DNA of 56,176 nt, filler included, from Sphacelaria rigidula (Eukaryota), in the NCBI GenBank assembly GCA_964200075.2. It is 5 parts of 5 records of this genome, joined end to end, with 100 filler letters (N's around TTAATTAATTAA, not from the genome) between each part and the next. Parts side by side here need not be neighbours in the genome. Positions count along the whole stretch, not along the records: positions 1 to 11,156 come from CAXNAA020005315.1; 4 more parts are not named here. The stretch is one strand, 5' to 3'. The position numbers and the translations under genes are program-made. Below the pieces are notes generated by a model. That model worked only from the letters and a program-made list of their open reading frames with translations. It did not search any database and had not been told where the DNA came from. Each line of letters starts with the position of its first letter. Position 1 is the stretch's first letter. Shown piece after piece: positions 1 to 55,808 of the stretch.

Positions 1-43
1 ATCAGAAGGTTACGAGGTTACCAACTGAGCCACCGGGGCGACC
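1..43 (-). mobile_element. tRNA-derived SINE family 1, 5' head fragment truncated by contig start
   Basis: Reverse complement reads GGTCGCCCCGGTGGCTCAGTTGGTAACCTCG, containing a Pol III A-box. Near-identical to the heads of the copies ending at ~14626 and ~46882. Confidence 0.75.
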
Positions 44-1900
44 ACTCTACGGGTCAAATTGACGTGACCTCACGTGCCTACTTGCATGAACGCAGCAATA
101 CGTAGGCACCGGTATAGGAGTTGATGTACGGAATGCCCCTCTGTTCCTGATCCCTTTTCAAACCCTGGTGCGTTCGAGGTATTAGAATGTCGCCAAACCC
201 AAAGCGTCATTTGGTGGTACGCTGCACGTCACGTTCCGCAACTATTACACATGTGAGAACGTACTAGAGTGTATCAGAAAGAGTTGGCCTCTAGGGCGCC
301 GACATTGTAGACCGGAACATTTTACCATCTATAATACTCATTTCTCCGTTCCAGCTGAGGGACAACACGGGCGTCTTGGGGGTTGACGCATGAAAAGCTG
401 TGCTACCGACTGTACCGTGTTGTTGAATATTGTGTGTGTTGATTGTGTTGTGCAAACAGGGTCAACTTGCCAAGGTATCATTTACGAATACAGTACATAC
501 GATACAGCGCGAACTCCGTGCTGTCGTTCTTCACTACAGTAGTACATACAGTCTGCGCTGCTCCTGTGCTCGCTTCTGGCTGCAGTCACTGCTTTAGTTC
601 GCGCAATTTACTCAGCGAGTAAGAAGATAACGCAACGGAGACTGCGCAAGCAGCAGCAGCAACTCTCTTTCATGTGATTCAACAATCGGCGGTCACAAGC
701 AAACCGCAAAACGGGGTCTCGCTGCGGGTTTAGCAATGAGTGATTGACAGTGGAACATGGCAAGTCTAGTTTTGAATGTTTTCACATCCGCCCCGCTCGT
801 TCTGTAGACAGTTCTAGGGTTCTCGGGTGTGTCCCAACACCCGCGGAAAGACGCACACAGATCCCGCCGTGACGCACGGGACTGTCATCGAAACAGTTGT
901 TCCGAGAGGAGGCTCGCAGCCCTGTTCTCTGAGCTTTTAAGCTCACCCCAACCCGTCGCAAATGGTCATCGATTCATTTGTACTGCGTGGGTTACACCAG
1001 ACATTCGATTTTCTGGTCTAGAAGGGATTGATAGTCCCGCGGGCTCGCTAGCGTACGCTGCACACGTTTCCGTGTGAGTCGGCAACACACGCCACCCATT
1101 TGAGAAATGCCAACTCACGATTCGCCTACTTTTATGACGCAGTTTGTAGTTGAGATTTGGGGTCACGTTGAGGTTGAGGTAGTGGTGGCGGTTGCGGTTG
1201 CGGTAAAACAAACGCTAATATGACTGCGTCAGCCATGGATTTCTGGTGGCATTGTACCCGTCACCCATGCAGCCCTCAAGGTTCGAGTGATGACGCTGTG
1301 TAGCCGCCGCTGTCCTCGTTCTTCCCCGACCCGAAGCACATGCCACACAGCTTTCGAGGCCAACGCACTGAATCACCTAGTGCAGAGAACAGCTATAATA
1401 AGACGCTTTGTTCCGCGTTGACTGATTTCGTGATCCCGCACTTGAGGCCGCATTGGTCATCGCATAGCAATGCAGCTCCAGTGCTGTCTGTATGTCGTCT
1501 ATCTACTATAGTAAACGGTTTGCGTGGATTTCGCGGGCGGGCTGTTCTTTGATGTGTCTTGATATCTCTGGACACAGGGGCTACTTTGACTTCAGGCAGA
1601 CGGCAAACTCCTCCGAATCAAAACTGGACAAGGGAGCCGTGCGAAGGGGGACATATTTGTATTCATCACAGTAGTAAATTGCACAGTACTGCAGCGTGAA
1701 TCTGTGCCATTGAACCCAACACCGGAGGACCTCAACGATGAACGTGGCAGTAATATATCTTGGCCCACGACACCCACCAGCGTCATTATGCTGCAGCATT
1801 CGGAACTACCGCCACCTACGGTTTTTTGGTTCGCTGGTTGTGCGCAGGTGTGCACGAAGTTGCCGTGCGTAAAAATCATCCCTGCGATGAAGTATCTCGT

Positions 1901-2044
1901 AGGCAGAGGGGGCGTTGCCAGAGCTCAAATCGACGCCTTTTAGCCGATTTTGGGCCAAAACACATTCTGGACGAGCTGGGTCTACTGCTCACCACTGCTC
2001 CCCTGCCCGAAGTCATGAATTTTCTCAGAACTTCCTTCAGTCTG
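1901..2044. repeat. ~145-bp dispersed repeat, inverted copy of 5155-5299
   Basis: CAGAGCTCAAATCGACGCC...CTGCCCGAAGTCATGAATTTTCTCAGAACTT is the reverse complement of 5155-5299 with scattered mismatches. Confidence 0.85.
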
Positions 2045-3364
2045 ACATGAAGTAAAATCGAGTACCAACCATTGTTTACGTACATTTCGTCAGATCTACT
2101 GGCCGTGACCGCAACGCCTCCGTGGTGGCGCTTGCGGCAAGACGATGTGAGGCGTTATGTATATTCAATGGCCCTTTTGGCGCGCCCTTTGTTGTCGTAA
2201 TTGCTCGAAGCCGTCGTTTTGACGATAGGCCTGCAGGACGATGGTGGCGGTTGTGTTCCATGCCCGAGCATGTTCCCTCGCTTGGTCCTTGCTTGACACA
2301 CCATCTTCCCCCTACACGGGCGTTTTATATTAGTCTCATACAGCATCACTTTTCACACGTTTTGTTCACGAGTGGTATGTTTGGGCCGTGGTCCATTTCG
2401 GTACTACTGTGTACCAGAAGCAAAGAAGGCACTACGGTGGCTCGAAACGTTTCATGGTCTTGATTTACCAGCAATTCGTCCGGATATGCCTCTTATCCCT
2501 CTCGACCCCCAAAAGCAGGTAAACGACGCCAACCCAGAGCGCTTTTATTGCACAAGCCGAAAGCCCTTCACGAGGAGGCAAAACCGACTGAGTACTACCT
2601 GAACCTGTTCACTACCCAATTCCGACGAGTGTGGGCAAGAAAACAGGGAGCATCGTTGGCAACCGCGACTCGACGGCAGCGAAGGTACGTGTACTAACTG
2701 TACTAGTATAACTGTATTAACGAGTATTGTTGCAGTACTGCCGCCGCGGGACGGTAAAAGGTAACGCCAACTCGGCGACAAACATCGATTCTTATGAACA
2801 GTTGGTTGCTGGTGTGGACAACCATATCCGGATTTCCAGAGGACTCGTAGCTCCGATATCTCACCCAGCGTGCACAGCACACATGTGGACCCGCGGCATC
2901 GATTTGAATTACTGCTAACCCACACACTTCACGTTGAACAATGGATGTCTCCCGCCAGCCCGAGGGTTCTCGGTCCCCCTCGGGGTAGAGTTGGGGTTAG
3001 GGTTCGCGATGTGGTTGGACAAGAACAAGACGTGTTCAACTATGAGTTTGTCTCGCCGGGTTCGCGTAAATCCGCCTCCCGCGGGATCCTTTCGTTGATA
3101 ATGATGAGAGACGCTTGTTGTTCGAGGTCAGTTGACCACTTGGCTGGACAAGGAATTCCTCGGAAATATACGTGCTGCAGACCGTGTCGTGAAACATCCT
3201 GCCCATTACGAGTACGCACCAAAGATTGCGGCGTGGCGCTTTTTGTTTGAGATTCACCTCACTGAATTCCGTGCACGTTGAAATCCCCTGTTCAGCGTGC
3301 CGCTATTACAGCGGCCAACTAATGAATGACGAGGAGGGACGGTCTTACATGATCGTGCGAACTC

Positions 3365-5450
3365 AGTCTGGGATGTGGATGCCCATTTGGTACACCCATT
3401 TGACCTGTTATATCCATCTGAGATGCCATGTCTATCTGAGATATCCATCTGGGATCTTACCATAACGATCTGGGACATCGTTTCTATGTGGGATACTCAT
3501 CTGAGATGCTATTAAAAGCATCTAGTATTTCATACCCATCTGAGATATCCATGTAAACTATTATTTTGATCTGTCGATCTGAGTTGTCCATCGAGATCGT
3601 TGATATCCATGCAGGATGTCTGCACCACCTGCGATGTCAGATCCACCTGAAAATATATCCATCTGACGTATACACCTTCTATTAAGCTGGTCGATAGATC
3701 GTCGCACATTCACTGGTACCCGAAGAACCCAGTATTGGTGACGAGAAAGACCTGCTCAAGATACAGACGAAACGGAATTAATATTATACTGGATCTGACA
3801 CAAAAAAGATGGGAGGCATGGTAAAAAAAAAAAAAAATGGAGACGAGAGTGGGGAAAAAGAGTAAAAAAGGGAGGACAAAAGTGAGAAGAAAAAACCGGT
3901 CCCGATGAACATCATCATGATCTAACAATATTGAACAAAAATGGCCGGCACGTGACGTGCGGCCTTTTTTTCAAGTGAAGGGGTCGTGTTGAAATCACGT
4001 GGGATATGGGTTTTGTTTGTCACACCTTGAACTCCTCCTTTTCCTTGGGACGAATCCATAGTCTCAAGAGATCGACCCATATTTCCCCCAGTGCACACCT
4101 TACATTTTGGTATGGCGGGTTGGACCATGACCGGCACTATCGCACCGCATCGAGTCTGGTCGAACAAAGTATCGGAGGAAAAGAAAGCTTCCTGCTCACG
4201 TCTTTATGCTTCCAATGACGTAGTCATAACGCAGACAAGGTCTAAACCTGACGCATCTGACGGAAATCAGACCCACACTCTTCAAGACCGAATGGTGTCG
4301 GTGGAACCTTCGGGGTGCGGCGGCTACAAGGATATACATGTGGAGTACGACTATACATACGGGATGTTCATTCAGGATGTCTACGTATAAATGGGATATC
4401 TATCTGGGATATCCAGGGATGCCCCACGTAAGAGATCCCAGATCGGAATGGACGTCTATCCGAATCCTAGAATATCCATCCGAGACGTATCAGATTGGGA
4501 TGAACGTACAGATCGATCTGGGATAGCAGTGTTGGATACTGCCGTCCATTCGAGATATTCGTCTGTGATGTAGGCGCCATTCAGGGATGTCCATGATGAG
4601 AAGTCGACATCGATCCCGGAATTATCCGCGAGGTCCACGCGTAAGTAGTTCTTCTGCATTTTATACACGTACTCATTGCGTATTCGGCGTGAAATGTTCG
4701 ACTGGAGGGGAAAGAGCCGAATCAGGGCCCTGGTTTCAAGCCTGATACAGAGATGGAACCTCATCCCGCATGGACTTTCACAACACACGTGGAGATCCGA
4801 GGAATGTGTGCCAGGAGGATGTTCAAGATGGTTGCTCACATCCTACTATGGATGGACGTCCATTGGAATATCTCAGGTTCAGCTGGACGGTTCGGATGGA
4901 TCTGATCACCCAGTTGGGCGTCTCAGAAGCATGTCCCAAATTGATGTCTGGGGTCTCCCAGGTGGATATCCCAGATAGATACAGTATCGCAGATGGATCT
5001 GACATCCCAGATGGAAGTACCAGATTGAAGTCCCAGATTGAAATAGATACCCCGGATGGGTGTAGGTATCCCAGCAGGATAGGCCAGATGGTTATAGATA
5101 TCAGTAGACCTAAGGAAATGTAAAACAATAGTTGGTACTCTGTTTCACTCAATTTCAGGATGAAGAAAGTTCTGAGAAAATTCATGACTTCGGGCAGGTG
5201 AGCAGTGGTGAGCAGTAGGCCCAGCTCGTCCAGGACGTGTTTTGGTCCAGAATCGGCTCAGAGGCGTCGATTTGAGCTCTGGTAACGCACACTTTGCCTG
5301 AGAAACGCGCTGCACCCCCCTTGCCCGAGGGTTCTCGGTATGCCTTGGTCGGGGTTAGGGGTAGGGTTAGCGTTAGGGTTATCCCGAACCGGGGGGTCGA
5401 TATCCCAGTAGGATATCTCAGATGAACAGCAAGGATGGATGTGATATCCC
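3365..5450. repeat. Degenerate GGATAT/ATATCC/CAGAT-rich arrays (3365-3670, 4330-5110, 5398-5450), probably transposon-derived
   Basis: Dense recurrence of GATATCC, GGATAT, CCCAGAT and ATCTGAGAT. The same motif class recurs at 41950-42310 on another contig. Confidence 0.7.
5155..5390. repeat. Dispersed repeat: inverted partner of 1901-2044, followed by CCCGAGGGTTCTCGGT and a TTAGGG-like tract also seen at ~2960-3005
   Basis: Direct sequence comparison within the window. Confidence 0.75.
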
Positions 5451-5689
5451 ACATGTAGGTTGCACGCCAATACCGAACTACCCAAGACAGTCACTCGACA
5501 GGATTCTATACGCTGTAAACAGTTTTCAGATACTGCGTTGGTTTCTTGATATGCTCTTGGGTGCGAAGAAACCGTTTGCCGAGAAGGCTTGGGCTTTTCC
5601 TCTTGGGCACCAGCGCGTAGCGTAAGTACAACAGTAATAGTATTCGCATTTTTTGTCCGTCGCTCGTGTTCTCTCATGAATGCAAGGTG

Positions 5690-8600
5690 ATGATGGGCGG
5701 CCGAGCCAAACGATCGCAACGGGCTACCCTAGCATCCCTCCGCCAGGACTCCTCGCGGCGCCCGCACGGCAACGACAGGCACCACCAACAGGAACCACAA
5801 CATCAGCAGCAACAGCGTGGGCAAGATGTCGGAGATCATACCATGGCCATGATGATGGAGATGGAAAGGCAGATGCACCACATCCCCCAGCACCATGTCC
5901 ATCACAACAACCATATGCTGCCCGCCCCCCCACCCCCTCTACACATAGCCCCGGTATCAAACGAGGAGCAGGAACTGCGTATCGGCATCGAGGTCGCCAA
6001 GCAGGAACCCCGCCAGCTCGACCTTACTCAGGCCATTGCCACTGAGGCCGCCGGAGCCGACGCAATCGACCCCTGGCACACGAGGGAGACATGGGAAGAG
6101 GGACAGAGCGCTGGTACTGGTGAAGGGGGTGATGATGAGAGTGATGAAGGCGATGGTGTTCCGGGATCGATGCGGCCAGCGCCGCCTGGGCTCGGCGCTG
6201 CGACTCTGTGGGCGCGAGAGGCCACCTCCATGAAGCGGTGCAGAGGTATGAGTGATGTGCAGTCTGAAGTCTCCGCGTTATAGGGCTCGCCAGAAGTTGC
6301 GGCCTTTGCTCACAATCCTCGAAGCGGGTCGGTCGGGTTCGGCACATTGAATAACTTGTACAAGTGAAGGTTGAGTGCCGCTTCAAGGCCGGCGCAAAAA
6401 TGAGCTGTTGCTTTCAACAAAGTGGACATGTCTCACGCCATGACCGCATTCACCCGGCGTTTCCTGGGAGGTCTGGATTCCGTCGGGGGAAGTACCACGT
6501 AAGCTTGGCCATGTGTACTCTAAGTGACACGAGAGTGCTACCGTTGTTGCCTCCCTTGGTCGGTTATTTTACGGCAAAGTTCGCACTAGTCCCGCCAATT
6601 TATCCCCCTCCCCCCACCCCCCACCTCCGTTCTCCCTTCCACTGCACCTTCCTCGCTCCCATCCCTCGCGTACCGCCGCCGACGTTGGATGGCATGCGCT
6701 TCCCCTCTTTTCCAAACCTTTTCGATAAACCAAGAACAAGCGTCGGAAGCTGGTGCTAGCGATGAAGGCATGTCCTCGTCGTTCACGTCAATCACAAGAA
6801 TGACACCGACCACCGTGCCGATGCCGTCCACCAACAAGGAGCTGGCCGTGCTCATCCGTGATGTGGTTGGCGCCAGACCGAAGTACGGGGATGAATCGGC
6901 CCGTCCCGCCTATTGGCCAGACGACGTCCCTTGGAAGAAGGGCAAGAGTATCAGCCAGGTAGTTGCGGGCTCTGCCAAACCTTCACCCCCAACTGCAACT
7001 CCAAGCCTAATCCTTTCTCTAATCCTGGCCCTACTCCGCTAATCCTAGCGCTACTCCGCTAACCCTAGCCCTACTCCACTATACTAGCGCTAATCTGCTA
7101 TCCCAACCCCTTCTCCGCTAACTCATACTCCAACCCGACCGCTTAGCGCGAGCACTAGCTGGACAAGAAGTAGGCCGAATCCGTAATCCGTAGCTTGAGC
7201 TCTAAATCCGCCGCTCAAATCTCGGCCTCGCTCGTGTCTAGCCGTCTCTGATGTTTTCTATTGTGCCTGATGCGTTCTGCAATCTTTTTTCTGTTGGAAA
7301 AACAAAACACACGGAAACATGAACATGCGCGACAAAACTAAAACAAATGCGCAGATGAACAACCTGACCCTGCGGCGACTTGCTAAAGCTGTGGTTCAGC
7401 ACCAAGCCCGAGCTCGCGAACGGTCTCGGCTGATGGGAGGGAACGTCGTTCCCATTGGAGGCGTCGGCTGCGGCCGCCGCACGAAGAAGGAGCTGTCGGC
7501 GCTCATCCGCTCCAAACTAGGCGAGATTCCGTACAGCTAGCAACGCAGATTGTATTGTTCCCCTCTTACTATGCCTCAACCTCCACCCCTCTTGCTTGCG
7601 ACGAGTCCGCAGTCTCAGGTAATCAGCGCATCTGCCCTCCGGTTTACTACCTGCCTTGCACTTCGTCGAGTGTTGGGTATCATCAATCCCGTAAGCCTGT
7701 TGACTTTCACGTCGAAAACAAGCGGGGTACAGCGATGCTTTGGAGAAGTTGCTCGCTCATGTCTTGCTTCTACTTTGACATTCCAACATTGCCCTCCATA
7801 TTCCCTCGTCGCCCCCGCCCCCGCCCCCGCTCCCGTCCTCGGATTTGCACAGGACTTCGTCTGCAGTACGGAGAGAAGGGCCGGCGTCCGGCATTCTGGC
7901 CGGCGGACGTTCCGTGGAAGAAGGGTAAACCCCTATCTATGATGAACCACGGAGAGCTATCCAGCGTCTTTTCCGCCATGTGAGAGCCCGAGCCCCTATT
8001 TTATCCAAAACAGTTTGCTGTAGTTCGCATATCAGGATCTCCCCGACGCTTTTTGCTCCATAGTCTGACAAGACATACACACGCGCGCGCCTGCCTGAAC
8101 TGTGTATCATGCGTGTGCATTACGCATGGCATTATCAACAGGGTTGGCGCCGGCTTGTGCCCCGCGGGAGCGTGCATCGACCCGCCGCACATCTATCAGA
8201 TCTCAGAAGGGTCGGACAGTAGCGGCTCGGTATCCATAGACGAGTGGACCACGGACAACAATCAGCAGTCACAGCCAGCGTCTTCATCAGCAACATCGTC
8301 GTCAGCAACGGCACTTCCCTCATCTTCCTACTTTTCATCGTCGTCGTCGTCATCATCATCATGTACTGAGGCTGGCGGCGGCGGCGGCGGCGGCGGCGAC
8401 GGCGGCGGCAGCGGCGGCGGGAGCGCATCATGGGGTGACGACTCCTATAGCATCGCCATGAAGCAACAGACCATGAATCATGAAGATACCATCGCCGACG
8501 AAATGTATTTGGGCGACGACGGAAACCCCTCGACCTTCACCGGATATCAGGGCGAACAGAGCGGAGATGGTGTAGGAATGACGGCGGGCGGCGAAGACTA

Positions 8601-9951
8601 CGACGGAGACAGCGATTGGCAGGTCAGCTTGGAGGCGGCCTTGAGTCGCGACAACGCAGCAGCCGGTGGCGGCCCGGGCGAACTTATCGATGAGTCGGTC
8701 TCTGCGGTGGTGGAACCCAGCGAAATGTTTCTCGAAAAGGTTCGCTTCGGGTTTTAATGCTCCCCGTTTGAGTGTTGGCCCTGTCTTTCATTGGATAGTC
8801 ATATTTTTGTTGTTGCACTCTTCATACGAACTATGTATCAAAGTGTCCGTAAATCTTCAGTATACACACTGCTCTCCGTTGTTTTCCTCTACAGGATATG
8901 GGTCGAGTGCAGGAGTAGTGAAACGAACCAGTCTGTTATTTCCCTTCTCGTACCATAGCCCTTTTAATAGTATATAGTTCTCTTTTGCGTTGGAGGCGCT
9001 CATGGTGTACGTGCTGGTGATGACGGCGGTGGGAGAGGGTAAGGTCTGTCACATCTGTCACATATCTATCCCGCCGTACCACGGTGGTCACACTGCTGCC
9101 TCATCGCCCAGCTTGGGCGGAGTGAACATAGTGGGTTCGAGTTCTTCAAGAAATGTTGTATTTCGCTGGTCTTCGAATGCCCGAGGACGTGAGTTGGCAA
9201 CAAATATATTCGGTCAAGGTCGAGGGCGGGCTGCGGGCGTGTTGATTCAGTGCTCGACTATAGGTCGCATGGCCGGGACACATACCAGGGAAGAGTGGGT
9301 TGATGTTTGGAGGTAACGGGCTCGTCCCCAGGAAGGTGGGGTTGGAAGTATGAAGACTTTTGCATGAATGTGTGTGCATGGATGCCAAAAGTTGTGTACG
9401 TATCGTTCAAATGGCACGCTTCTCATTGGGCGAGACGTCCAACTCGCTCTGATACACACCTTACTCACTCCCGTAGAACCGCTGTCTTTGTATTCGTGTT
9501 TGTTGTGTGCTTCAACACATACCAGGCAGAAACCCCAACATTGAGCGACTACGACCTCACGTTTCCATCATCCGCAGCCGCCGGTGGCGCCATCTCGGGC
9601 TACGGCACTACTAACGGCACTGCCGGTGGGAATTTGCCGACCTTCCCAGGCTCGAGAGGTGGCTGCACGATGCTTGGGGCGGGAAGCATGCCCAGCTTCC
9701 CATCCCTCGATAGCCTGACCAACGTCAACATGGCTGGCTCCGCGGCGTCCACCAGCAACATGGGTTACTTCGGCGCGTTTGGGAGCGCGCCTGCTGCCAC
9801 CGCTGCTATTGCACAGGGAGGAGGGGTGGTCCATCCTGGGTCTTTTGCCAACGCCGCCGCCGCGTCGTCTTCGGCGATGTTGCCACCATCATTCTCCAAG
9901 GAATTTTATCAGCACGCCAAGCACGGTGAGAAAATCCAGAGGAACAGCTGA
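5690..9951 (+). CDS. Putative transcription factor (~698 aa) with two tandem NRF1/EWG-like modules and Q/H-, S/G- and A-rich low-complexity regions
   Basis: Phase-consistent exons 5690-6245, 6735-6958, 7355-7520 (GC donor), 7853-7979, 8142-8739, 9526-9951 total 2097 nt with no internal stop. Repeat 1 is KELAVLIRDVVGARPKYGDESARPAYWPDDVPWKKGKSISQM; repeat 2 is KELSALIRSKLGLRLQYGEKGRRPAFWPADVPWKKGKPLSMM. The 5' end is uncertain (possible acceptor at 5686). Confidence 0.8.
6975..7140 (+). repeat. Degenerate CCCTAA-like hexamer tract in intron 2 of the NRF1-like gene
   Basis: 6-bp periodicity with CCCTAA variants (CCTAAT, CTAACCCTAGCCCTA, CTACTC). Confidence 0.6.
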
Positions 9952-11156
9952 GGGGGAGGGCCGGGAGAAGGCTGTGCTCAGGTTACGTGATCCATGGATT
10001 TTGTTTTTGACACCTTGACCTTCAGGTTAAGTCACCCCTCGATCGTTTTTCTGTGGGCGTTGGTGTATTTCACCCTCCCTGCTGCTTTTTGTCAGGATCC
10101 GCACAAGATTTCGTTGTGCAAAGCTCGCTCCTTGGTGCTCTGGATGTTTTGTACACTCCTTGATTGTATTCTGACTGTCATGTACAGGAATCTCGCACGA
10201 TTTTGTCGCCAAAACCGACCCCAGATCATCAATTCCGTTGCATGTGTTCCGTCTGCTGTCTCCGTCTGCTTTTCCCGTCTTCTGTTTCCGTCATATTCCA
10301 CAGAAATGTCAGGGCCTCTCGCGCAGCCGATGAACTTGGGAGAAATCCGCCCTCACCCGCATGACGTTTTCCATGACGCGTGGACCGTGGGAGAAGAGTT
10401 CTGATCGCATGCGTCCCGTTGGTTTTCCAGTGTTTTGGCTCGGGGCGTACATCTGTAAATACACAACTGCGTACGTCACCGTAGCAGCGTCGAAATGACC
10501 TTTTTTCGTTTCACACATGGAACTACACGACACACACACGGCTCCCCACGAATGGCAACAAGAAAAAACATGCACGCATGCGTGGTACGTATATCGCGTG
10601 TTGCCAAGACTTCTCGCGCATCATGTGAACTTCGCCGGCGATTTTTCGTGCGTGCGGGTTTATTATGAACGGAATGGGCGATCTGTCAGGGGCAGAAAAG
10701 AGAGTATACATGCGCCGTATGCTTGTCTTGTGTGTCATGTCTGGGCTGGGTTTTGACTGTTTCCCGTCACTGTATGGAGGCGAAAAATAGAGCATTCGCT
10801 GCTATCGGGAGTCAACAGGCAGCGATCGCTTCTGTTTGGTGTAAAAAAAGAGTCCAAAGTTGGTGGGTGTATGGTGCGGTACGGTATGGTAGGGTAGGGA
10901 ATGGTATGTACGGTACATACGTGTTTCGGAAACACTCTCGGAAATTTATTTAGAGATACCAGACGGCCTCCAGCTTTTTTCGAACGGATGAGGGGTGGGT
11001 TGGCGATACAGTACGTGCTTGGAGGTGAGGTGAACGGTCTCTGTGGGTGTTTGTACATGGCACGACGGGGGTGTGACGGAGGGAGGGGGAGGGGGGGGGG
11101 GGGGGAGCGGGGAGAATTGGGGGGGAGGGGAGGGGCAAGCGGCAAACAGGAAGCAC

Positions 11157-29400: not shown

Positions 29401-32400
29401 TACATGACTGCATGAGGCTCTCGGGCATGTTCTTCATGCTAACCATCGGAGGAGGCTCAGCCGAGATGAAACATCTGCGCAATACGGCGAAACCATGGGA
29501 AAACCACGGTAACGGGATTTGAAAATCAACCCCACCATTACACTCCGGCCACTGATTGACCCCATCGCAATGCTGCATGACCGCAAACGCACGCGTGTCT
29601 GAAGATGCTGCTCCCGCCACCATCTGTCATCGTACTTATATTTTCCATTTCCCATCCGGACTGCTGAACCCGGTTTAGTACCACAATTTTCCTCGTTGCT
29701 CTTTCGATTGCTCATCAGTCCCCACTACGCCATTCGAGACGGAACCCGATTACCTACGGATATGTGTTTGCGGCCTAAACGACCGCAGTGACCAAAAGCT
29801 GTGCCTCACCGGAATGTTTCGTGTGCGCCATGTTGCACTATTTCCAGCAACCGCTCAAGGCTTGGCACCCAGCTCTGCATCAAGTGACAGTTCTGCAGCA
29901 AAACCCATCCCCCATCTTTCGCGAATCTGCGGGCCGCGTAGGCAGTTTGAAAGGAACGCAGATAGGCGTGGTCGTAATCGGGAGAGCGTGCGAATATGGC
30001 GTTACGTACTCGCGTAAACACTATTATATAGATATCTTGGACTCTACTGAGGTATCCTCTTGAGGTTTCAAAACTGAACGCTGTGCGCAGCCTGAAAACA
30101 ATCAGCGCAGATGACCCTTCACGCTTCCCAGCCTCGTAGACCGCCAAGTTCTGTAGTTGTACGTATGTGCATGTAAGCTATAGCACGACTCTCACCTCTC
30201 AACAACACCCTCCGCGGGCTTCTCCTGACCTTGGCCCATAGATATGTTGATGAACTTACCTAAAACGGTGGAAATGTCGAAATGTGATGCACCGGAGAAA
30301 CGCCCAAGGCGACAAACCGCAGAGCAGTTGCACGATCAACATATGACTGCGGCGTTGATGATATCGACTCTCAACCTTCCCGATATCCCTCTACCGTATG
30401 CAGCCGATAGCCGATAGGATTGTTCCCTTTCACACCGCAAGCTATATGACGTTCAATTGATCAAGATGCGTTTGATAATCAAGCGACGGCACACACAATA
30501 TATTCGATCATGTGCCCACCGTTCTCAGTAGTAATATCTAGTGTTCTGGCCAGATTTTCCACCCACGGCGTGGGATCAACTCCGGGAAAAAGCACGAAGA
30601 ACATGGGCGTCGCAGGGGATGTCTCCATGTACGTCTCTGCCATGTCATACGGCTTTTGTAGAACGTAGTTGGTGCCCATGGTCTGGAGATCAAGGAATAT
30701 CACACAACGGTATAATTTTATGAATGCATGCCGCATGCACGGCTTGGCGATCAGGGAGAAAATACAAACGCAGTCCGCACGTGTCCCGCTCCAAATGTTC
30801 CGCGAGTAACCCCTTGCAGACGGCCGCCCCGTATCGCAGTGATTTACCTGGCCAATCCACTTTGCCAAAGCAGTAGAGACCCGATCGGGGCGCATGGCTC
30901 TTAGGAGAATAAGTCTGTCGAATGCACTCAAAGTTTTCTCGAAGTCTCCAGGCAGCTTGGCTTGGTCCGCCTTTTCATCGTCGAACCACGCCTGCTCAGA
31001 ATACCATCAAGGTTATACCAGTGTATCGTACAGGCGAGTGGTGTAGAATGATAGATACTCGTCGACCGAGGGTGTTCCCGAAGAAAAATCGCACACGTGA
31101 CACTTGCTGCACATATGACAGGTAGGGCAAACGAAGCGTCTGCTGCAATTCCCCGACGCGGCTTCCATCAGTCCAAATCAGTCGTCGTGGGTCCCTCAGC
31201 TCACCTGCCAATCGTCAGAATCGGACTGCATCGCATCGCCGATGTTGTGGAAACGCTTGACCCTCTCAAGGGATTTGAGCTTCGGCCAAATTGCTTCGGG
31301 AAGCCATTCGCCAAGGGGACCCATGTTTCCCGGGTCGATCGAGATCTACACAGCAACAGGGGTGAGAGGCGTGGAAGGCGTGGAAGGCGGGCGAGTAGGA
31401 CAGTGCATGGAGATGGTTGATTAATGCCCCCACTGCGTGCTGCTATTCTTACGGGTGGGTCACACAACATAGAAGCCATTTTCGAAAGGGATTAGGAGTA
31501 GAGTAGTCAAAATACGAGGAGATACCTGCCACTGCGCACCTTCGACATGACGAGGTAGTCTACTTCTTCTTGGGCAAGCAAGCCATCGTTGACCAGGATC
31601 TTGAGAGTCAGCATGGTGGCTACGGTGAGCTTGTCTCGCTCGAACAGCCCTCGACGTACGTAGTTGAAAACAGTCGTCGTGAGCGCATCAACGAGAACGA
31701 CGCATCTGTGGCAAACGATTCAGTTACAGTAAAAGTCGAGATAAGGACCAACTTTAGAGCACTAGATCGAACTAGACATGTGCTGCAGTTTACTAGGACC
31801 AATGCTGCAAACCACGAGCCGTCGATAACTCCGCGTACTGTATGCCGCGCCCCGGTGGTGTAATGGTCCGGCTGTCGCCAGTAGGGTGGAGAGAACGGGG
31901 GTTCGATTCCGGATGCGTTGGGTTCTTTCTTCGTAATATATATGATTTCCACCGTGGAAATCGTGAGAACGTGAGTAAACAAAGTAGTCGACTGGGTTTG
32001 TGTAACGTGTACCGGAGGGGATATGGAATGATCCCTTGAGACCACGGACTCATCCCGAGGGAGGGGAGGGGTTCAAAGTGTGAGGAAAAAACAAACAAAC
32101 TGTATACCGCACGCCCTGCCTAAACAATGAGAGCGGTAAAAGAAATAGCTTCGCAAGTCTTCACCTGCTCGCCAGCTCTTCATCCGTCATCTCCTTGATC
32201 TCCCCACTTGTTCCGTCTTCGTCCTGCTCTTCGTCCTCTTTCCCAGCAGAATCACCCGCATCCTCCGCGACATTGTCACCTCCGCCCTCCACGCTAAGGG
32301 CCTCAGTACTACCAGACGGTGGCTCTCCATCAGCGCCATCAGACGGCTCTTCTTCAGATCCTGTTGGTTTTTGTGCGGTCTTGCTCACCTTGTCGATTCC

Positions 32401-39260: not shown

Positions 39261-40731
39261 TGTTGGATTCTTCTTCCAGTATTGAACATGGTTGTATTCG
39301 GTGGTCTATGGCCCTTGCAATCACTCTCCCAAGCTTACCAAGCTCTTCTTCATTTCCTCAGTACTCTGCTTGCAAAAGAGGCTGTCTTGATTTTATTCGG
39401 CCGAAGTGAAGAGCCCCAAACACCATTTTTGTCTTTGGACTTTCTGTCTGCTGCAGAAGCGAGTGGTTTGACCACCACTGTGCAACCTCTGCTAACCTAC
39501 TGTCTTCGCGACGGTCGTCGGTCTGTTTCGACAACAGTACCAAACCACGAGCCACAATTATTTCCAACAGGTTTTGAGCCTTCGATTCGCGACCACGTAG
39601 TCCTTCCGGTCATCGGCCTTTGATTCAAGACTACGACGGTCAGCACGAGCGAGGGGACGCCTCTTCAAGGTCGTCTCAGCAGCATCAATCAGAAGACCAA
39701 GAATTCAGATCCATTCACAGGATCTGCAGGTGTGAATAGAAAGTTGAACAAATAAAACTTGAGGCAGATGAATACATCGGGAGAGCCATCTTTAACTCAA
39801 CTCATCAGGAGTATAAACAAGTTTGACGGTACGAAATTCGTCGAGTGGACGCGCTCTACGCGCGCGATAATTTCCTTGACTCATCCGAGGATATCTGATA
39901 TTCTCAACGGGGTTGAACGCCCCCCGGAAATTTAAGAAGATTTTTCTGAGGTAGATCACCCACAACCACCTGCCAGATCGACATCAAGAACAAGCCCCAT
40001 TGCGACCCATTCCAGAAGCGATTTGTAGCCGCCCGCTCGTTCGCCGTTACCATCGGTGGAAGCAACCGCGGGGAGCGAGACGACAGCAGCGGCGGGTGAC
40101 ACTGAAGCTGCCGGTGACCGAGCCCAACCTCTTGTTCAAGAAGTGTCTGATCATCCCAGCGGGGACTCAAATGTGAGAAAACTTTTGAACAAGCGTGAGA
40201 TACAAAACTGGGACCGGTATAACGAACAGTTGTTCAACGTTTTGTACTTATCGACAACTGGCTCAGGCAAGTTACTTCTTGCGTTTTCAGCCGAAGGGTT
40301 CAGAAAAAACAAACGGCAAAAGTGCGTGGGGAGGATTGGTAGCCAAGTACCAAAATTCATCTGAGCAAAGACGCCACTTACTGATGCGACAGCTGGACAC
40401 CATGACTATGTCACCAGGACAAGACCCGGATGTTTTTTTGGCAAGACTATTCCAGCTCCGAGACGAGCTCGTGCACATTGGCGAGTCCATCTCCGACGAA
40501 AGACTCACTGATAAAATAGTCGAGGGTCTGACCAGCGAGTATCGCCAAGTGAAATATAACGCAGGACGAGACCCAGACTTGAGCATCAGGGATATTGAAA
40601 CAACCCTACGTAACATGTATGCCAGTAGACTGGCGAGGAAAGTAACCGCGAGCAGATCACATGGCCGTGATTTTTTATGCTGCCGGCAGCAATGTCGAAC
40701 TCCTCGAACCAACCCACAATTATTTCCAACA
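39261..40731 (+). mobile_element. Decayed Ty1/copia LTR retrotransposon: 5' LTR, PBS, gag pseudogene, 3' LTR end; pol missing
   Basis: LTR 39261-39569 is bounded by TGTTGGA...TCCAACA, followed by PBS-like GGTTTTGAGCC. The gag from ATG 39768 (INKFDGTKFVEW...NGKSAWGGLVAKYQ...DPDVFLARLFQLRDEL...IVEGLTSEY) has a stop and frameshift. CACAATTATTTCCAACA is repeated, ending at 40731. Confidence 0.8.
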
Positions 40732-41949
40732 GAAAACCGACGACCATGGAGAGTTTCTGAGCATGCAGAGTAAAACAACATACTTCTGGCGGCGACTTCG
40801 TTGCTGCTGGTGTGGTCCACGTGGGGGCTGGTATACCGTAATCTGTGAGCTGTAGCCCATGTGATATGTAGTCGATGCGCGTGGGGAGGAGCGTTGACTT
40901 CGAACTTTCGACTTTGCGGGGGCCATCACAAGCCTGTGACTAACGCGACATATGGTTCCACCGGGAGCAAGCAGATTTTCGTAACATGAAGTACTTGCCG
41001 CTTCATTTGTGGCCCCCGCCGCGAGCGCTGACCAAAAAGTCTTGACTGAGATAGGTTGGGCTGGCTTTCGAAGAGAGCAGATGAGAGAAGTCCAGATATT
41101 TCACTGTCTCTGGCTGTCGGCGAAGTGTTCATGTGTTTGGGAACAAACATGAATAGTTTTGATATTTGAACTATTTTCACAGCCTTCACAAGGCTGTGAA
41201 GAACTGACAGAAGCCGCTTTCCTCGACTTCCGTCAGGGGTAAAACAAAATGCCACAGTTTTGGCGAGCCCCGGGTAACGTTGCCAAGGACAGGCAGTATT
41301 CAATGAATGAAATTCCACAGTTTCACACCTGTCAAGTGTTTCTAGAAATGAATGTACTATTCCGAACACGAGCGGGTGCACTGCACTTCTTTTCCATACT
41401 TGTCCCCGTATGCCGATGTCCAAACACTCGCGCAACAAAACTCTCAAATGTCCAATGCGAAGGCTAGGATTAATTCGTGCAGACGGGCGGCATAAAATCC
41501 AGCTACCAATGTTAATGAACATGGTTGGAACTCCACGTGCACCACTGCTGGGAGAATTCAAGATACACAGCGCGAACTTGATTGGCATACATCATTAAAA
41601 TTTCATATTTAAATATAATAACTTATGCGCCTCAGAAGGGCAACTTCGACGCAAGGTTTCCCGCTACAGACAGATGGTAGCGCCCTAACTTATATCGACA
41701 CGTTTCCACGCCGGAGACGCTAGGAGCGATGTCGGCCTCGTCCTGAGCCCGCCGGACAAACGACAAACAGATGTTTTGCAATATTTTCGTGGCTATTTGT
41801 GCTCTCGGGCCGAAATCGCGCTGAGGGAACACAACGTAGGCGACGCGATTCCCAAAAGTACCTTGATACGCACAGAGCACCAAGCAGCCCAATATTATTC
41901 GAAGTACTTGCCAAGACAGTTTGTATCAAATAAGGGCGGTTCGAAGCAT

Positions 41950-48460: not shown

Positions 48461-51400
48461 TCACATGAGCAAATACGGTGGTGCGCACGCGGTGCGTTTC
48501 CTTGCCGAAGGCGACACGTAGTTGTTCCTCACGCTTATCTTCTCGATGTCAGGAGCCAAGCTAACTCCTGGCGCCGTTACGGCCTTGAACACCGCCTCCA
48601 CCCCTACGTCCCCCATGCCGTTGCCGGACAAATCCAGTCTCGCGAGAGTAGGCCAGGTTCCCGCCCCTGATAACAAAAAATGTGCCACTACTTTCCCGCC
48701 CTCGTCTCGCAGCGCATTAGCGCCGAGGTCGAGCCCCCGAAGCGACGGGAAAGCGCCGGTGGCAAGTGCTCGGCCTAGCGCTCGACTGCCGCCGGCGCTG
48801 ATCCCGTTCCCGCGCAAATTCAACTCTTGAAGCGTTCGCCCTGCAGCTGATGCCCCGCTCCCACTGCTCAGTGCCCGAATCAACGTTCGAGTTCCGACGT
48901 CCCCCACCATGTTCCACTCCAGGTGTAGAACCCGGAGGCGCGGGCACGCCCCATTAGCAAGGTCGGCCGACAAACTCTGCCCTCCTGTGGGGCCCAACTT
49001 CCAACCCCTAATCTCTTCCACACCTCGGAAACGCAACAGGTTCACCTCGAACGCTTCCGAGCTGTGCTTCTTGCCTTGCTTGGTGGGACCTCCTCCGCCA
49101 CCGTTTCCTCCATCGCTCCACGCGGGCTTGGTCGTCACACTGCTCGGTGTTTTCTGTTGCGTTACTGCCGTTACTCGTGCCGCCCGGGGAGAAGGGCGCG
49201 ACCCGGTTGTTGGTGGCTCGTCACGAGGTCGATTCTTGGTTTTCGTGCCCGAACTTTGGTTCTTGTTGACGCTATCCTCTTCGCCTGCACCGACTAGGTT
49301 TTTCGTCGGTTTAATACCACCTTGCGAAACCTCGCTCCTTCCGTTGGTACTGCCTGCGGAGCGTCGAGGTGGTGTCCGTCGTCTGGCTGTGGCTCCTGGT
49401 TCGCTGCCCTGCGACCTCACCTTGAGCCTCAAGAGAAGATACGTCTCAGTTTCGAGTGGAGTGTCTTCGTCGTCCCTCGGGGGCGCGTTGATCCCTCCGA
49501 TCAAGCCCGACTGCCGCATGATCCTCAGCGTGGCTTGTGTGACTGCCTCTCCGTCGTCGTACTCCGCCAAGTATGCGTTCGCAGCGGCTGTAGTAGTAGA
49601 TGTTCACATCCGATTGTGAGGGGGGAGAGCGCACACACGGGGTGGGGTGTGCGCCATTACAACGAGTGTTTGTGTCACGCAATGCGCAAAAATCAACCGT
49701 GATGCTTGCGTGAATTTTTTTGTCATCCAAATTGCATGTGAAGTGCATCTCTCCTGACGTGAGTGTCCGCCGTAAAATGTACCGGGCAACAGGCATTTTT
49801 AAGTATGCAGATGAATACAAGATAGAACGGCTCCCACACATCTTATGACTTGCCGGTTATACAACACCGACCAAGTGCTTGATAGTACTTCCCTCGCCGA
49901 AGCACAACTGTACGTTGCCCGTTGCTCAATATTGACCCCCTCTTCCCCCCCCCCCCCCCTTCTCCCGCCCCGCGACACTCCTTTGAGCTCGTCTTTCGTC
50001 CACACACCTTGCCGTAACTCATCGGCGTCTCGAAGAAGCTCGGCGTACGAGTCCTCCTTGTTCTGCTTCACCTGCACCGCGTCGTCCTCCACTTGCTTCG
50101 TGAGTGTAGCGTTTTGCCAAGCTCCGTTTGTCTTCAGGAAGTAATTCCTCACTTTTTCCTGGTCCATAGACTTGGCATACTCTTGCTTTCCCCGCAGCGT
50201 TATCTCGTTCCTCACCTACCGTCGTGCACACACGGAGCAGTGGCGACGAGACGAAAATATAGTCAGAAACTACGAGAGAAGAAAGGGTGAGGGGCGACCT
50301 GAGAGCGAGTAGTGTCGAAAGGAAAGCGGCGATATACATATAACCGACTTTTTCAAGATTTATACATGCTTTCGTATCAACATCATCGTTTTGGGAACTA
50401 ATCGCCGGCAGATCAGGACCTCCCGCGATCGTTTGCGCCGCCACTTCCTTGTCCGACGATACGCCCATCCTTCCCACTATGATCTGGAGTTGCTCAATCA
50501 ACTGCAGGCATTACGAGGCATACATACACCACAGCTCGAGCAAACGAAATAAGAGACTGCGGACCATGATACGGTAAAACACACACAATTTACCTTTGCG
50601 GTGGAAAGACGGAGTTGAAGGTTCGTGGCTCACGTGCTCAACCCTACGGCGGCCAGTGGAGTTGAGCATAATTCCGCTCTCAACGGGGAAAGTTCGGCAC
50701 TCACGTCAGACAAGAAGTCACGTTGCTCTTGCGCCGCACGCTCGTTCCGCAACTGGGTGCGCAACAGAGATCGCGTCCTGCTCTGCTGCCTCTCCGCCTC
50801 CCTGGCGATGTCACACCAGTGCGTGCATGTCCGTCATCAGCCACAACTGCGATATCTATGTCAATTCAAAAAGGAAAAGGATACGCGTATTCCAATGTAC
50901 CACGCACACCCACTTCTCGCTTAACAGGAAGTGAAGCAACCGGGAATCGGATCTGGATCTCATTAGTGAGGAAAACTAGTGGGAGGCATTCCGCTCCAGC
51001 TCAAGCGATCGTGCAGACAAATAGCCAGGGCCGACTGAAGTTTTCACCCCCTCATTTTATCTTCAGTTTGCGCATTTTTGCTGTTTGTTGTGAGCACCTA
51101 GTATTGATGAGCAGAGTCCTTAACGCTCACTTGTACGGAAACCACCTACAACACGCCTTTCATTACAAAACCTATTCTACAACAGTTTCGCGAGAACACC
51201 GGTGTGGGTCGGCTGGCATTCGTGGGCCTCCGCCGCATCTATTCCCACCCTTCCATGTTCGTTAACGCAGCATTTGCAGTCCTACGCTCCTGGCGTCGAG
51301 CAAGTGATCTGGGACGGGGGCTACGCGATACCGTTCTAGACTACACCATCGACATCAGAAGGATATCGAAACATGCGGCTCACTCTTACATTCAGTTCAG

Positions 51401-53777: not shown

Positions 53778-55208
53778 CTATTTTGCGTTCGGCAAGGAAG
53801 GAGGTCAGATCTAGACAGTGCACGGGTACGGAGTCTATTGGCCTGAGTGGGCGAACCGCCTCAAGCGGGCGATTGGTCAAAGCAACAACGCAAGGGGCAA
53901 GCAACGCGAGGCAATTTTCATGTATACGTCTCGTCATGTTTTTCTATCCTCGCTGGTGATCGATCAATCAAGGATCAACCAGTTCCTTCCTCGAAGCACC
54001 GTGAGGTCGTGGTACATCTGCTAATGAAGCAGTATGGTGCGACTTTTCTGCGCGTACCACGCATGTCCTAGTGGTATCATGTACGCGGCGGTCTTCGCAA
54101 CCTGTGGGTAGGAGGTGCTTGAGGGTAGATATCCTACACAGGGAGCATTTCCCTTGTTTACGCGAAACAGCGTGCTAGTGTCGGTCTTGTTCCCTGCACC
54201 CCCAAAAGAACGCAAGTACAAAGTGCAGCTGTAATGATGTCATCCATCATCGTGCTCGGTGTGGCCGCCAAGACGCAAGGCCTGTACAGTATACGCATTC
54301 CATTAATGTCTGTTTGCATGCTGTTTCCACTCCTCCTATGCGTCACCTTGATGAACGGAAGCGGAAGCATACTTTTCACGTTGTTTCTGGTCAGAAGCTG
54401 TTCTTTTTTGCGCCGTGACCCTGCTGGCCACAGCAATCAATCACCACACGCCTTCCATTTATACTCCGCATATGGCCCAAACAGTCCGCGTTTTACCTCA
54501 TGCAAGAGGCATGTCGCCGCGTGAGCATCGTGAGACTAGCCGCCTCGAACACTCAAGCAACATCATCGCCACACCAGCCCCTGAAATGTGCCGCTGAAGA
54601 TATCATATATATATCATATACCTTCGAATTGTTGGATCTTGCGTAGATTTTGAAACGTAACGATCCGCAAGAAGAATGGCTTTCTATCTGATGGAAATTT
54701 CCGCGGTACGGTATCAACATGAATATTATACCGGGTTCAGTATGATCATCAACCAACGAAGTATCCATCGAGCTATTGCGTGATCGACTTAGTTTTGTTT
54801 GCTCCGCAAAAATCCTGATAATCACCCACACTACTCGTACACACATCCACTACAACAGTACTACTGTGCCGTCGTTTTTGTACAAACACTACTGGGCAAC
54901 CCGGCGCAACGCAGACGACTGAATAAGCAGCGCAGTAGCCAGTGGCGGTGGAAGCGCGTTTTTCTTAGCGCCAGACGACTGGGAGGCGGCCCTAGCCGCC
55001 TAGTGTAATGTTGGGCAAAAAAAATCGAAATGTGATACTTCCGGGTCAACATCACGCTGCTCCTCTCATCGGCGATAACCGTGACGGCCCCTTTTCAGGG
55101 AACCGAGTGCTGCAGAGTGCTTGTGCCCATGATTTTAGTGACACCAGTCGGCGAACGCGAGCAGGCACTGTACATCACTGCAGCACCCGGAGCAGCGCGG
55201 GGGTGACG

Positions 55209-55808
55209 ATGCCGCGTGGTCAGGGAAATGGCTCGAGATCATCTGCTCAGTTACCTGATCCGTCGTTGCCCCACCATGCCACAGCATCCTCGGCCGAAAA
55301 TGTTGAGCACAATCGTATCCGTGAGGTTACGTGTAGTGACGAGGTGGACACGACGGCCGGCTCCGCCGCAGCAGCGGCGGGCGTGGCAAACGCAGCCCTC
55401 GTCGCTCGCGGCGCGCTCAAAAGCGGGTATTTGTGGAAGATGGGCGCTAATGTGCCTCGCTGGAAGCGCCGTTACTTTGTACTGAAGCCCATCACCATGC
55501 TCTTCTACTACCTTTCCGAGCATGATACCGAGCCTCGCGGGTGCATTGATCTCGATCTGTTCGATGCTGTGCGGAGAGTTGGCCCAACACAGCAAAATCA
55601 TGGTGGGGAGGGAGGTGACGGAGCGGAGGGCGGCGCGGTGAGAAGGCGCACGGCATTTGAATTGTACAGATCTGGGTGTCCCGAGGGCAGTGGGTTCATG
55701 CTGGAAGCTCGTGGCCACGAAGATTGGGAGCACTGGGTGGAGACGATCGCGAATGGGCGGCACGGAAAGATGCAAGCAGAGACGGATGTGCTGAAGGGCA
55801 CGAACAAA
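55209..55808 (+). CDS. PH-domain protein, first coding exon (gene continues beyond the window)
   Basis: LKSGYLWKMG..PRWKRRYFVLK...LFYY....DTEPRGCIDL...FEL...FMLEA...DWEHWVETI is a PH signature. The exon ends at a GTGAGT donor at 55809. Confidence 0.88.

What the first reader, a model, noticed from the sequence alone, without database searches (positions are those of the whole stretch)
6830..7979. Tandem NRF1/EWG-like DNA-binding modules in a probable brown-algal protein
Seen: after splicing, two ~55-aa repeats (KEL..LIR...G.R..YG....RPA[YF]WP.DVPWKKGK..S.MN...L) sit within otherwise Q/H-, S/G- and A-rich disordered sequence. Known: animal NRF1/Erect wing DNA-binding domains have a similar GWG...KPxWWPxDIPW core and bind as homodimers, and plant EIN3 has a PPWWP core. 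Inference: this may be an uncharacterised stramenopile transcription-factor family with a minimal, duplicated module acting as a single-chain pseudo-dimer. It is the best novelty candidate in the window.
Basis: partly seen in the sequence, partly recalled or inferred. Interest (0 to 1): 0.75.

Follow-up and report, generated by a model that had tools for sequence, protein, structure and literature searches.

The report
Twin NRF1-type DNA-binding brown-algal protein
A spliced brown-algal gene encodes two shortened copies of the DNA-binding domain of the animal transcription factor NRF1, and the dimer-forming domain that probably once preceded them survives here only as a frameshifted relic in the 5' leader, so one chain may do the job of a dimer.

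Summary
Confirmed and extended. Contigs of 3 of 4 runs laid show all six introns, including a GC-AG intron inside repeat 2; the fourth, DNA-like run shows none. The 723-aa protein has two ~58-aa basic modules, 30 of 58 identical. Repeat 1 matches human NRF1 DBD (E 1e-4); 4 of 6 full-length brown-algal orthologues pass the Pfam Nrf1_DNA-bind cut-off; a model ranks NRF1 first of 48,161 chains, at middling Z 6.0. Module spacing is fixed at 85-87 aa. New here: a partial Choristocarpus relative has an N-terminal domain with a MADS-like predicted fold, like NRF1's dimerisation domain, and the window's upstream exon holds a frameshifted remnant of it (score 74, null max 54). Best reading: a monomeric tandem-DBD transcription factor with its own specificity (NRF1's three base readers are changed). 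DNA binding is untested; tandem NRF1 modules also occur in other eukaryotic proteins; named relatives are brown algae only; the frameshift was not checked against reads.

The parts
2519..2684 (+). Upstream exon holding a frameshifted remnant of an N-terminal (MADS-like, NRF1-DD-like) domain; read as 5' leader
   Evidence: 3' end: 30-nt loose end of spliced contigs in 3 runs maps here; 5' end inferred from an acceptor site and a contig start. Match to Choristocarpus P0013 N-terminal domain in two frames. No ATG in the exon. Single copy in the genome.
2685..5686 (+). Intron (3002 nt, GT-AG) within the domain remnant
   Evidence: Donor at 2685 and acceptor at 5686 from loose ends
5687..6245 (+). 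First coding exon (ATG 5690): last helix of the remnant domain, Q/H-rich stretch, and at 6179-6245 a short motif with a basic end shared with Ectocarpales orthologues
   Evidence: Joint 6245|6735; BLASTP to five orthologues starts at aa 164; in-frame second half of the remnant
6735..6958 (+). Exon with helix 1 and WP loop of module 1 (module 1 starts at 6827)
   Evidence: Pfam PF10491 E 3.9e-4; NRF1 8k3d E 1.1e-4
6959..7354 (+). Intron (396 nt, GT-AG, phase 0) inside module 1; relatives' exon fragments break at the same residue
   Evidence: fragments P0001-P0010, P0020, P0022 diverge after the same motif
7355..7520 (+). Exon with last helix of module 1 (to 7402), linker, and helix 1 of module 2 (from 7478)
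7521..7852 (+). GC-AG intron (332 nt, phase 1) inside module 2
   Evidence: 332-nt skip in 3 of 4 runs, absent in X5; ends read GC..AG
7853..7979 (+). Exon with WP loop and last helix of module 2
   Evidence: PF10491 E 0.13 alone; 58% identity to module 1, E 1.4e-7
8142..8739 (+). Exon: end of module 2, S/G-rich and acidic low-complexity region (candidate activation region)
   Evidence: Joints; composition; no Pfam family
9526..9925 (+). Exon: A/G/S-rich low-complexity region
   Evidence: Joints; no Pfam family
10304..10404 (+). Last coding exon to the stop codon; contigs continue to at least 10931-11000 (3' UTR)

Best explanation
A brown-algal, sequence-specific transcription factor of the NRF1/Erect-wing DNA-binding-domain lineage that works as a single chain. 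Each ~58-aa module is a shortened NRF1 DBD (helix, proline/tryptophan loop, helix). The two modules, held 85-87 residues apart, are inferred to read two neighbouring half-sites, replacing the dimer that NRF1 forms through its MADS-like domain; because the modules differ at the base-reading positions (N versus K at the R206 site), the target is probably non-palindromic and not NRF1's GCGCATGCGC. The acidic, S/G/A-rich tail is inferred to be an activation region. The ancestral gene probably had dimerisation domain + module 1 + module 2; the dimerisation domain is frameshifted in this species and undetectable in Ectocarpales gene models. Shown: gene structure, duplication, NRF1 homology, conserved spacing, similarity of the upstream exon to the Choristocarpus N-terminal domain. 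Inferred: DNA binding, monomeric state, MADS-like identity of that domain, order of events.
For: Splicing: six joints in 3 of 4 runs from two studies, none in X5. Homology: NRF1 is the only PDB match of the module-1 exon at E<=10 (2 of 177,635 sequences; 10 of 25 residues identical); profile A1 gives E 7e-6; PF10491 cut-off (23.5 bits) passed by P0012 27.1, P0014 26.7, P0045 26.1, P0039 26.0. Fold: template-free model of the Cladosiphon two-module region (pLDDT 72.7) ranks NRF1 chains 1-3 in Foldseek and 1-2 in VIA (Z 6.0, rmsd 4.5, 74 aligned; Z 5.7), the only 2 of 48,161 with Z>=5. DNA-contact positions of NRF1 (PMC10810270 sections 17, 19): K221 is R and W224 is Y in 29 of 29 modules; N242 is K in 23 of 29; R244 is K or R in 21 of 29; R206 is N 12, R 9, K 8 of 29. 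Charge +5 and +8 per module. Spacing 85, 85, 85, 87, 87, 86 in six proteins; module 2 forms one group across window and Ectocarpales (89/89). Only one coding difference between runs falls in the two-module span, and it is synonymous. Remnant: frameshift-aware score 74 on the spliced transcript, 0 of 258 shuffled queries reach it even over the whole window (max 54); each half alone 0 of 5000. Choristocarpus residues 20-100: 5 of 5 structure rows are MADS/SRF, TM 0.46-0.59; SRF MADS is the closest fold to NRF1's dimerisation domain (PMC10810270 section 16). Isolated NRF1 and EIN3 DBDs are monomers with weaker binding (PMC10810270 section 19; PMC4564277 passages).
Against: No DNA-binding data. 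Fold scores are middling (Foldseek E 0.2-1.1; Z under 8 is common by chance). The window's own spliced protein could not be folded or scanned; single exons stay under the Pfam cut-off (20.6 and 12.4 bits) and 2 of 6 full-length orthologues fail it (18.2, 18.7). None of NRF1's three base readers is kept in the window, and R244 is hydrophobic (V or M) in 8 of 29 modules. Invariance of R and Y is partly ascertainment, since the set was found by similarity. pTM 0.49 and a low-confidence linker give no fixed geometry between modules. The MADS-like call rests on one protein: no sequence match to NRF1's dimerisation domain or SRF-TF, and our own single-sequence model was low-confidence (pLDDT 37). 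Scanned blind over the unspliced window the exon part alone is the best place but not significant (57 of 689 shuffles). The frameshift lies outside the stretch laid with reads. P0013 is partial, so its second module is unseen, and it lacks the motif shared with Ectocarpales, so it may be a paralogue.
Confidence: 0.6

Rival explanations
1. The N-terminal domain is still made: the frameshift in exon 2519-2684 is an assembly error or one allele, and the protein is a dimer with four DNA-binding modules (dimerisation domain + two modules per chain).
For: The remnant keeps clear similarity on both sides of a single 2-nt shift with no stop inside either half; the exon is still spliced in. The start of the X8 contig fits either reading: 2 letters shared with the previous exon means the shift is in that run too, 4 shared letters would mean an in-frame allele.
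Against: Five Ectocarpales N-termini show no trace of the domain (p 0.34-0.96), so the family functions without it or those models miss the exon; the first coding exon opens with ATG ATG; identity of the halves to P0013 is only about 30-45%.
Confidence: 0.15
2. The modules descend from NRF1 DBD but no longer read bases; they bind DNA or chromatin non-specifically, or bind proteins, and the protein is a co-regulator.
For: R206, N242 and R244 are all changed in the window; positions 242-244 vary between modules and lineages (K-G-K, K-G-V, N-H-K, S-D-R); the loop after the WP core is shorter than in NRF1.
Against: Replacements are mostly K, R or N, which can read bases; the K221-equivalent arginine is invariant; spacing is fixed; modules are strongly basic in an acidic protein.
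Confidence: 0.17
3. It is a sequence-specific factor, but only one module reads DNA; the second stabilises it or adds backbone contacts, so there is no pseudo-dimer.
For: Modules are only about 50% identical and evolve differently (Ectocarpales module 1 has lost basic residues in helix 1; rows); in NRF1 one DBD alone binds a half-site (PMC10810270 section 19).
Against: Both modules keep the whole core in all six two-module proteins.
Confidence: 0.1
4. The likeness to NRF1 is convergence of a short Trp/Pro-rich motif.
For: Direct sequence matches cover only about 25-29 residues; fold Z is middling.
Against: Profile-profile match over 62 columns to modules that themselves score 66-78 bits on PF10491 (prob 96.6, E 6e-10); independent top rank by fold; a MADS-like domain upstream in Choristocarpus as in NRF1.
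Confidence: 0.04

Closest known systems
NRF1 / Erect wing / P3A2 (Pfam PF10491 Nrf1_DNA-bind; PDB 8K3D, 8K4L)
   Same: Helix + G-x-P-x-aromatic-G...P-x-W-W-P-x-D-x-P-W core (10 of 25 identical); best fold match; basic residue at K221 and aromatic at W224 kept; a MADS-like N-terminal domain in the Choristocarpus relative.
   Different: Module about 58 aa against 84 (aa 201-284); two modules per chain instead of one; dimerisation domain not in the reading frame; R206/N242/R244 read N/K/K and K/K/K.
Unnamed eukaryotic proteins with three NRF1-type modules, two with a BTB domain (P0015, P0016, P0019, P0021), and P0018 with several weak modules plus C2H2 fingers
   Same: Tandem NRF1-type modules without a detectable dimerisation domain before them; found directly by the module-1 search; profiles match.
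   Different: Three longer modules with R206 kept in 12 of 12; separate group from all brown-algal modules (100/99), so the tandem arose independently. No taxon was given; my label 'animal' is a guess.
Plant EIN3/EIL DNA-binding domain (PF04873; PDB 4ZDS)
   Same: Proline-rich PPPWWP loop; monomeric core DBD with dimerisation further N-terminal and sensitivity to site spacing (PMC4564277 abstract and passages); fold rank 5, Z 4.5, rmsd 3.6, 70 aligned.
   Different: No Pfam hit; six-helix, 133-aa core; single copy per chain.
Fungal YDR124W-like / DUF2841 helical bundle (PF11001) and GTF2I repeat (PF02946)
   Same: Weak recurring PF11001 hits over the WP core (E 0.008-0.1); Atlas neighbours at 0.77-0.85; GTF2I fold Z 3.8.
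   Different: All far below cut-off or lead-level only.

Membership tests
NRF1/EWG (PF10491) | Pfam gathering score 23.5 bits | tested here: inconclusive
Full-length orthologues: 4 of 6 pass; partial P0013 19.0.
NRF1/EWG (PF10491) | DBD core motif (G-x-P-x-W-G ... P-x-W-W-P-x-D-I-P-W) | tested here: met
   10 of 25 identical to 8k3d_A 45-69, E 1.1e-4; profile E 7e-6.
NRF1/EWG (PF10491) | DBD fold: helix 5, long linker 2, helices 6-7 | tested here: inconclusive
   Model of the Cladosiphon orthologue, not the window: NRF1 ranks first by two methods but Z 6.0/5.7, rmsd 4.5-5.2, Foldseek E 0.2-1.1; module is about 25 aa shorter.
NRF1/EWG (PF10491) | Base-reading R206, N242, R244 | tested here: not met
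   Window module 1 N/K/K, module 2 K/K/K (R206 bridged through P0016). R206 is kept as R in Ectocarpales module 1 (9 of 29 modules).
NRF1/EWG (PF10491) | Minor-groove K221 and backbone-contact W224 | tested here: met
   R and Y in 29 of 29 brown-algal modules; set found by similarity.
NRF1/EWG (PF10491) | MADS-like dimerisation domain N-terminal to the DBD in the same chain | tested here: not met
   Absent from the 723-aa frame; only a frameshifted remnant across exon 2519-2684 and 5687-5755.
NRF1/EWG (PF10491) | MADS-like dimerisation domain in the Choristocarpus relative P0013 | tested here: inconclusive
   Atlas model: 5 of 5 rows MADS/SRF, TM 0.46-0.59; helix-strand-strand-helix order in a pLDDT-37 model; no sequence match.
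NRF1/EWG (PF10491) | Binds TGCGC half-sites / GCGCATGCGC as a homodimer | not testable with these tools
   Needs binding assays.
EIN3/EIL (PF04873) | Pfam EIN3 profile match | tested here: not met
   No hit for 7 window pieces at E<=10, 12 proteins at E<=0.5, 5 at E<=1; HMMER filters drop most matches above about 0.1.
EIN3/EIL (PF04873) | EIN3 core DBD fold | tested here: inconclusive
   Z 4.5, rank 5; Foldseek rank 31, E 7.3.
YDR124W-like / DUF2841 (PF11001) | Pfam gathering score 31.3 bits | tested here: not met
   13.2 bits for the module-1 exon; at most 16.7 for brown-algal orthologues.
GTF2I repeat (PF02946) | Profile or fold match | tested here: inconclusive
   No Pfam hit; Atlas cluster with 11% PF02946 at 0.85; Z 3.8, rank 13.

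The most novel reading that the evidence does not exclude
'MADS-like dimerisation domain + WP-loop DNA-binding domain' is one ancient eukaryotic architecture shared by animal NRF1, brown algae and probably plant EIN3 and fungal PF11001 proteins, and brown algae preserve the steps of a switch from homodimer to single-chain tandem reader: domain intact in Choristocarpus, frameshifted into the 5' leader in this genome, gone in Ectocarpales. The gene would be an overlooked, conserved, single-copy brown-algal regulator with a new DNA motif.
Probability: 0.3. Interest if true: 0.8.

Novelty: new variant of a known kind. Interest (0 to 1): 0.6.

Why it matters
Surveys of brown-algal transcription factors rely on fixed family lists; the main texts of the 60-genome study and of TAPscan v4 contain no 'NRF', so this conserved, apparently single-copy gene seems to be missed. 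It extends a domain known structurally only from human NRF1 to a distant eukaryotic lineage, gives a minimal 58-aa version for binding studies, and offers a rare visible intermediate of domain loss. The Ectocarpus orthologue (Esi_0000_0120, 'hypothetical protein') lies in a model species, so motif discovery and a knock-out are directly feasible.

Tried and rejected
Homodimer prediction for P0013 residues 20-100: no answer, score 0.09 against a mark of 0.32; no evidence either way. Fold searches with the low-confidence P0013 model listed no MADS or NRF1 chain and were dominated by one helix: uninformative. No RNA holder was on record; RNA status of X1, X2, X8 is a guess supported by their joints. 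My first by-eye register put A/S at the R206 site; computed alignments overturned it. GT donor at 7531 for the intron in module 2: wrong phase, not supported by joints. Second copy in the genome: L005 (E 0.045) lacks the WP core and was rejected; one SRF-TF candidate under cut-off. Metagenome scans found no relative; two viral hits are 12-residue chance matches (only L011 was inspected). Alignment A3 of short pieces to P0013 misaligned and was not used. No likeness to P0013's first 26 residues in 1-2518, so the first exon was not located. The inverted repeat around the remnant exon is two copies of a high-copy repeat, not evidence of a captured fragment. Papers: no paper held all terms for NRF1+EIN3+structure, brown algae+NRF1 or the orthologue's accessions; searches gave nothing on this family by their listings. 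The library lacks most subscription papers, and the supplements of the 60-genome preprint (Table S15) were not seen. No earlier scan notes.

Full report
GENE STRUCTURE. Window places 1-11156 are one contig of a 244-Mb assembly. Splice-site inspection gave a model in which repeat 2 is in gap-free register with repeat 1 only if the intron at 7521-7852 is GC-AG. Four runs were laid on 5000-11000. Contigs of X1, X2 (one study) and X8 (another) show the same six joints: 6245|6735, 6958|7355, 7520|7853, 7979|8142, 8739|9526, 9925|10304. X5, covering 30 of 30 bins at even depth, shows none. The runs are RNA by guess only, but the joints fall on splice sites. The spliced frame is 723 aa (ATG 5690, stop ends 10404). 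The same contigs carry a loose end before 5684 that maps to an exon ending at 2684. Of six coding differences between runs, three change a residue, all outside the modules; the one inside the two-module span is synonymous.

THE REPEATS. Module 1 is aa 217-276, module 2 aa 302-361; 30 of 58 identical; score 161 against a shuffle maximum of 51 in 5000. Each is basic (+5, +8) in an otherwise acidic, low-complexity protein. Searches of the genome found these two and no credible third copy; such searches give lower bounds.

WHAT THEY ARE. The 41-aa module-1 exon hits Pfam Nrf1_DNA-bind at E 3.9e-4 (20.6 bits, under the 23.5 cut-off) and fungal PF11001 at E 0.095. Its only PDB matches at E<=10 are the two NRF1 chains. 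Protein searches returned brown-algal relatives: Cladosiphon, Nemacystus, Ectocarpus spp., Scytosiphon, Hapterophycus, Choristocarpus (names), plus unnamed exon fragments 85-98% identical to module 1. No named relative lies outside brown algae. Four of six full-length orthologues pass the PF10491 cut-off, among them E. siliculosus Esi_0000_0120. They share with the window both modules, their spacing (85-87 aa in six proteins) and a short upstream motif. A template-free model of the Cladosiphon two-module region (22-row alignment, pLDDT 72.7, pTM 0.49) ranks NRF1 first in Foldseek (E 0.2-1.1) and in VIA (Z 6.0 and 5.7, the only 2 of 48,161 chains at Z>=5), with EIN3 fifth (Z 4.5) and a GTF2I repeat thirteenth (Z 3.8). 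These Z values are middling; their weight lies in agreeing with the sequence result.

DNA-CONTACT POSITIONS. From PMC10810270 (abstract and sections 16, 17, 19, 21 read): NRF1 has a MADS-like dimerisation domain (54-172) and a DBD (201-284) that is a monomer alone; R206, N242 and R244 read bases, K221 enters the minor groove, W224 touches the backbone. In 29 brown-algal modules K221 is R in 29, W224 is Y in 29, N242 is K in 23, R244 is K 17, R 4, V 6, M 2. R206, bridged through P0016 and placed alike by three MAFFT modes, is N 12, R 9, K 8 in an overlapping set of 29 (P0017 and P0043 left out for lacking helix 1, P0045 added). The window has N/K/K in module 1 and K/K/K in module 2. So the surface looks DNA-binding but not NRF1-specific.

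TANDEM MODULES ELSEWHERE. Four unnamed proteins carry three NRF1-type modules each (66-78 bits on PF10491), two with a BTB domain; a fifth has several weak modules and C2H2 fingers. In a tree of 23 modules the 11 brown-algal ones stand apart from these 12 (100/99), module 2 groups across species (89/89), and the Choristocarpus module groups with the window's module 1 (94/83) (80 columns, midpoint root, no NRF1 row). Tandem arrangement thus arose at least twice, and the brown-algal duplication predates the split from Ectocarpales.

THE LOST DOMAIN. The partial Choristocarpus protein P0013 has an N-terminal region whose Atlas model resembles MADS/SRF in 5 of 5 rows (TM 0.46-0.59); our single-sequence model shows helix-strand-strand-helix there but at pLDDT 37, and there is no sequence match to NRF1's dimerisation domain. 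The window's upstream exon (2519-2684; 5' end inferred) and the start of exon 5687 match P0013 residues 30-96 across one 2-nt frameshift: score 74 against maxima of 35 and 46 in 60 shuffles and 60 random pieces; each half alone is unmatched in 5000 shuffles; 0 of 258 shuffled queries reach 74 on transcript plus whole window. Against this, the exon part alone, scanned blind over the unspliced window, is the best place (ending exactly at 2684) but 57 of 689 shuffles do as well. Five Ectocarpales N-termini show no trace. The frameshift was not covered by laid reads, and the X8 contig start fits both a shifted and an in-frame exon.

MECHANISM. Most likely (0.6) a monomeric factor whose two modules read adjacent, unequal half-sites at a set spacing, the tandem having made the dimerisation domain dispensable; the tail would activate transcription. 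Rivals: non-specific or protein-binding modules (0.17), N-terminal domain still made (0.15), one reading module only (0.1), convergence (0.04).

COMPARISON AND NOVELTY. It works like NRF1 at the level of the DBD and shares its ancestry with high likelihood, but fails two defining features of NRF1 proper (base readers; dimerisation domain in the chain), so it is a variant, not an NRF1 orthologue in function. EIN3 (PMC4564277, abstract and passages read) follows the same logic of monomeric DBD plus N-terminal dimerisation, but only a weak fold match was found. In the 60-genome brown-algal preprint (10.1101/2024.02.19.579948; passages and section 101 read, supplements not seen) and TAPscan v4 (PMC11712027; passages) the term NRF does not occur in the main text. 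PMC12420836 (passages) had nothing on origins. Ten paper searches found no description of this family; the library is incomplete. That NRF1 is usually regarded as an animal factor is recalled; PMC10810270 names only animal homologues. Atlas neighbours in fungi (scores under 0.9) are leads that the module is widespread. Verdict: real, a new variant of a known kind, interest 0.6.

Noticed in passing
window 1901-2077 and 5123-5299: Two inverted copies (88%) of a high-copy dispersed repeat (853 candidates in the genome) flank the single-copy remnant exon; the second adjoins telomere-like TTAGGG-type units.
   Followed up: partly
window 2521-2684 joined to 5687-5695: The frame of the remnant's first half ends in two TGA codons that overlap the ATG ATG start at 5690. 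A stop-start overlap could allow re-initiation if an upstream ATG exists, but it follows automatically from the codons there.
   Followed up: no
window 6256-6596 and 6929-7381: Low-depth contigs covering introns in the three spliced runs: retained introns, pre-mRNA or DNA.
   Followed up: no
window 6179-6245: A ~21-residue motif ending in basic residues is conserved in Ectocarpales orthologues but absent from P0013; candidate nuclear localisation or partner-binding helix.
   Followed up: partly
window 7521-7852: Gene models of relatives break near this GC-AG intron: P0041 diverges at the same residue, suggesting the non-canonical donor is older and misleads gene callers.
   Followed up: no
P0015, P0016, P0019, P0021, P0018: Unnamed eukaryotic proteins with triple NRF1-type modules, two with BTB, one multi-module protein with C2H2 fingers; possibly undescribed families in their own right.
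   Followed up: partly
window 30482-31006 (-), 40189-40770 (+), 48464-49603 (-), 54996-55823 (+): On other contigs of the window: dynein heavy chain piece, copia-type gag, leucine-rich repeats, PH domain.
   Followed up: no
window 21601-22293: Long simple trinucleotide/hexanucleotide repeat giving low-complexity open frames on both strands.
   Followed up: no
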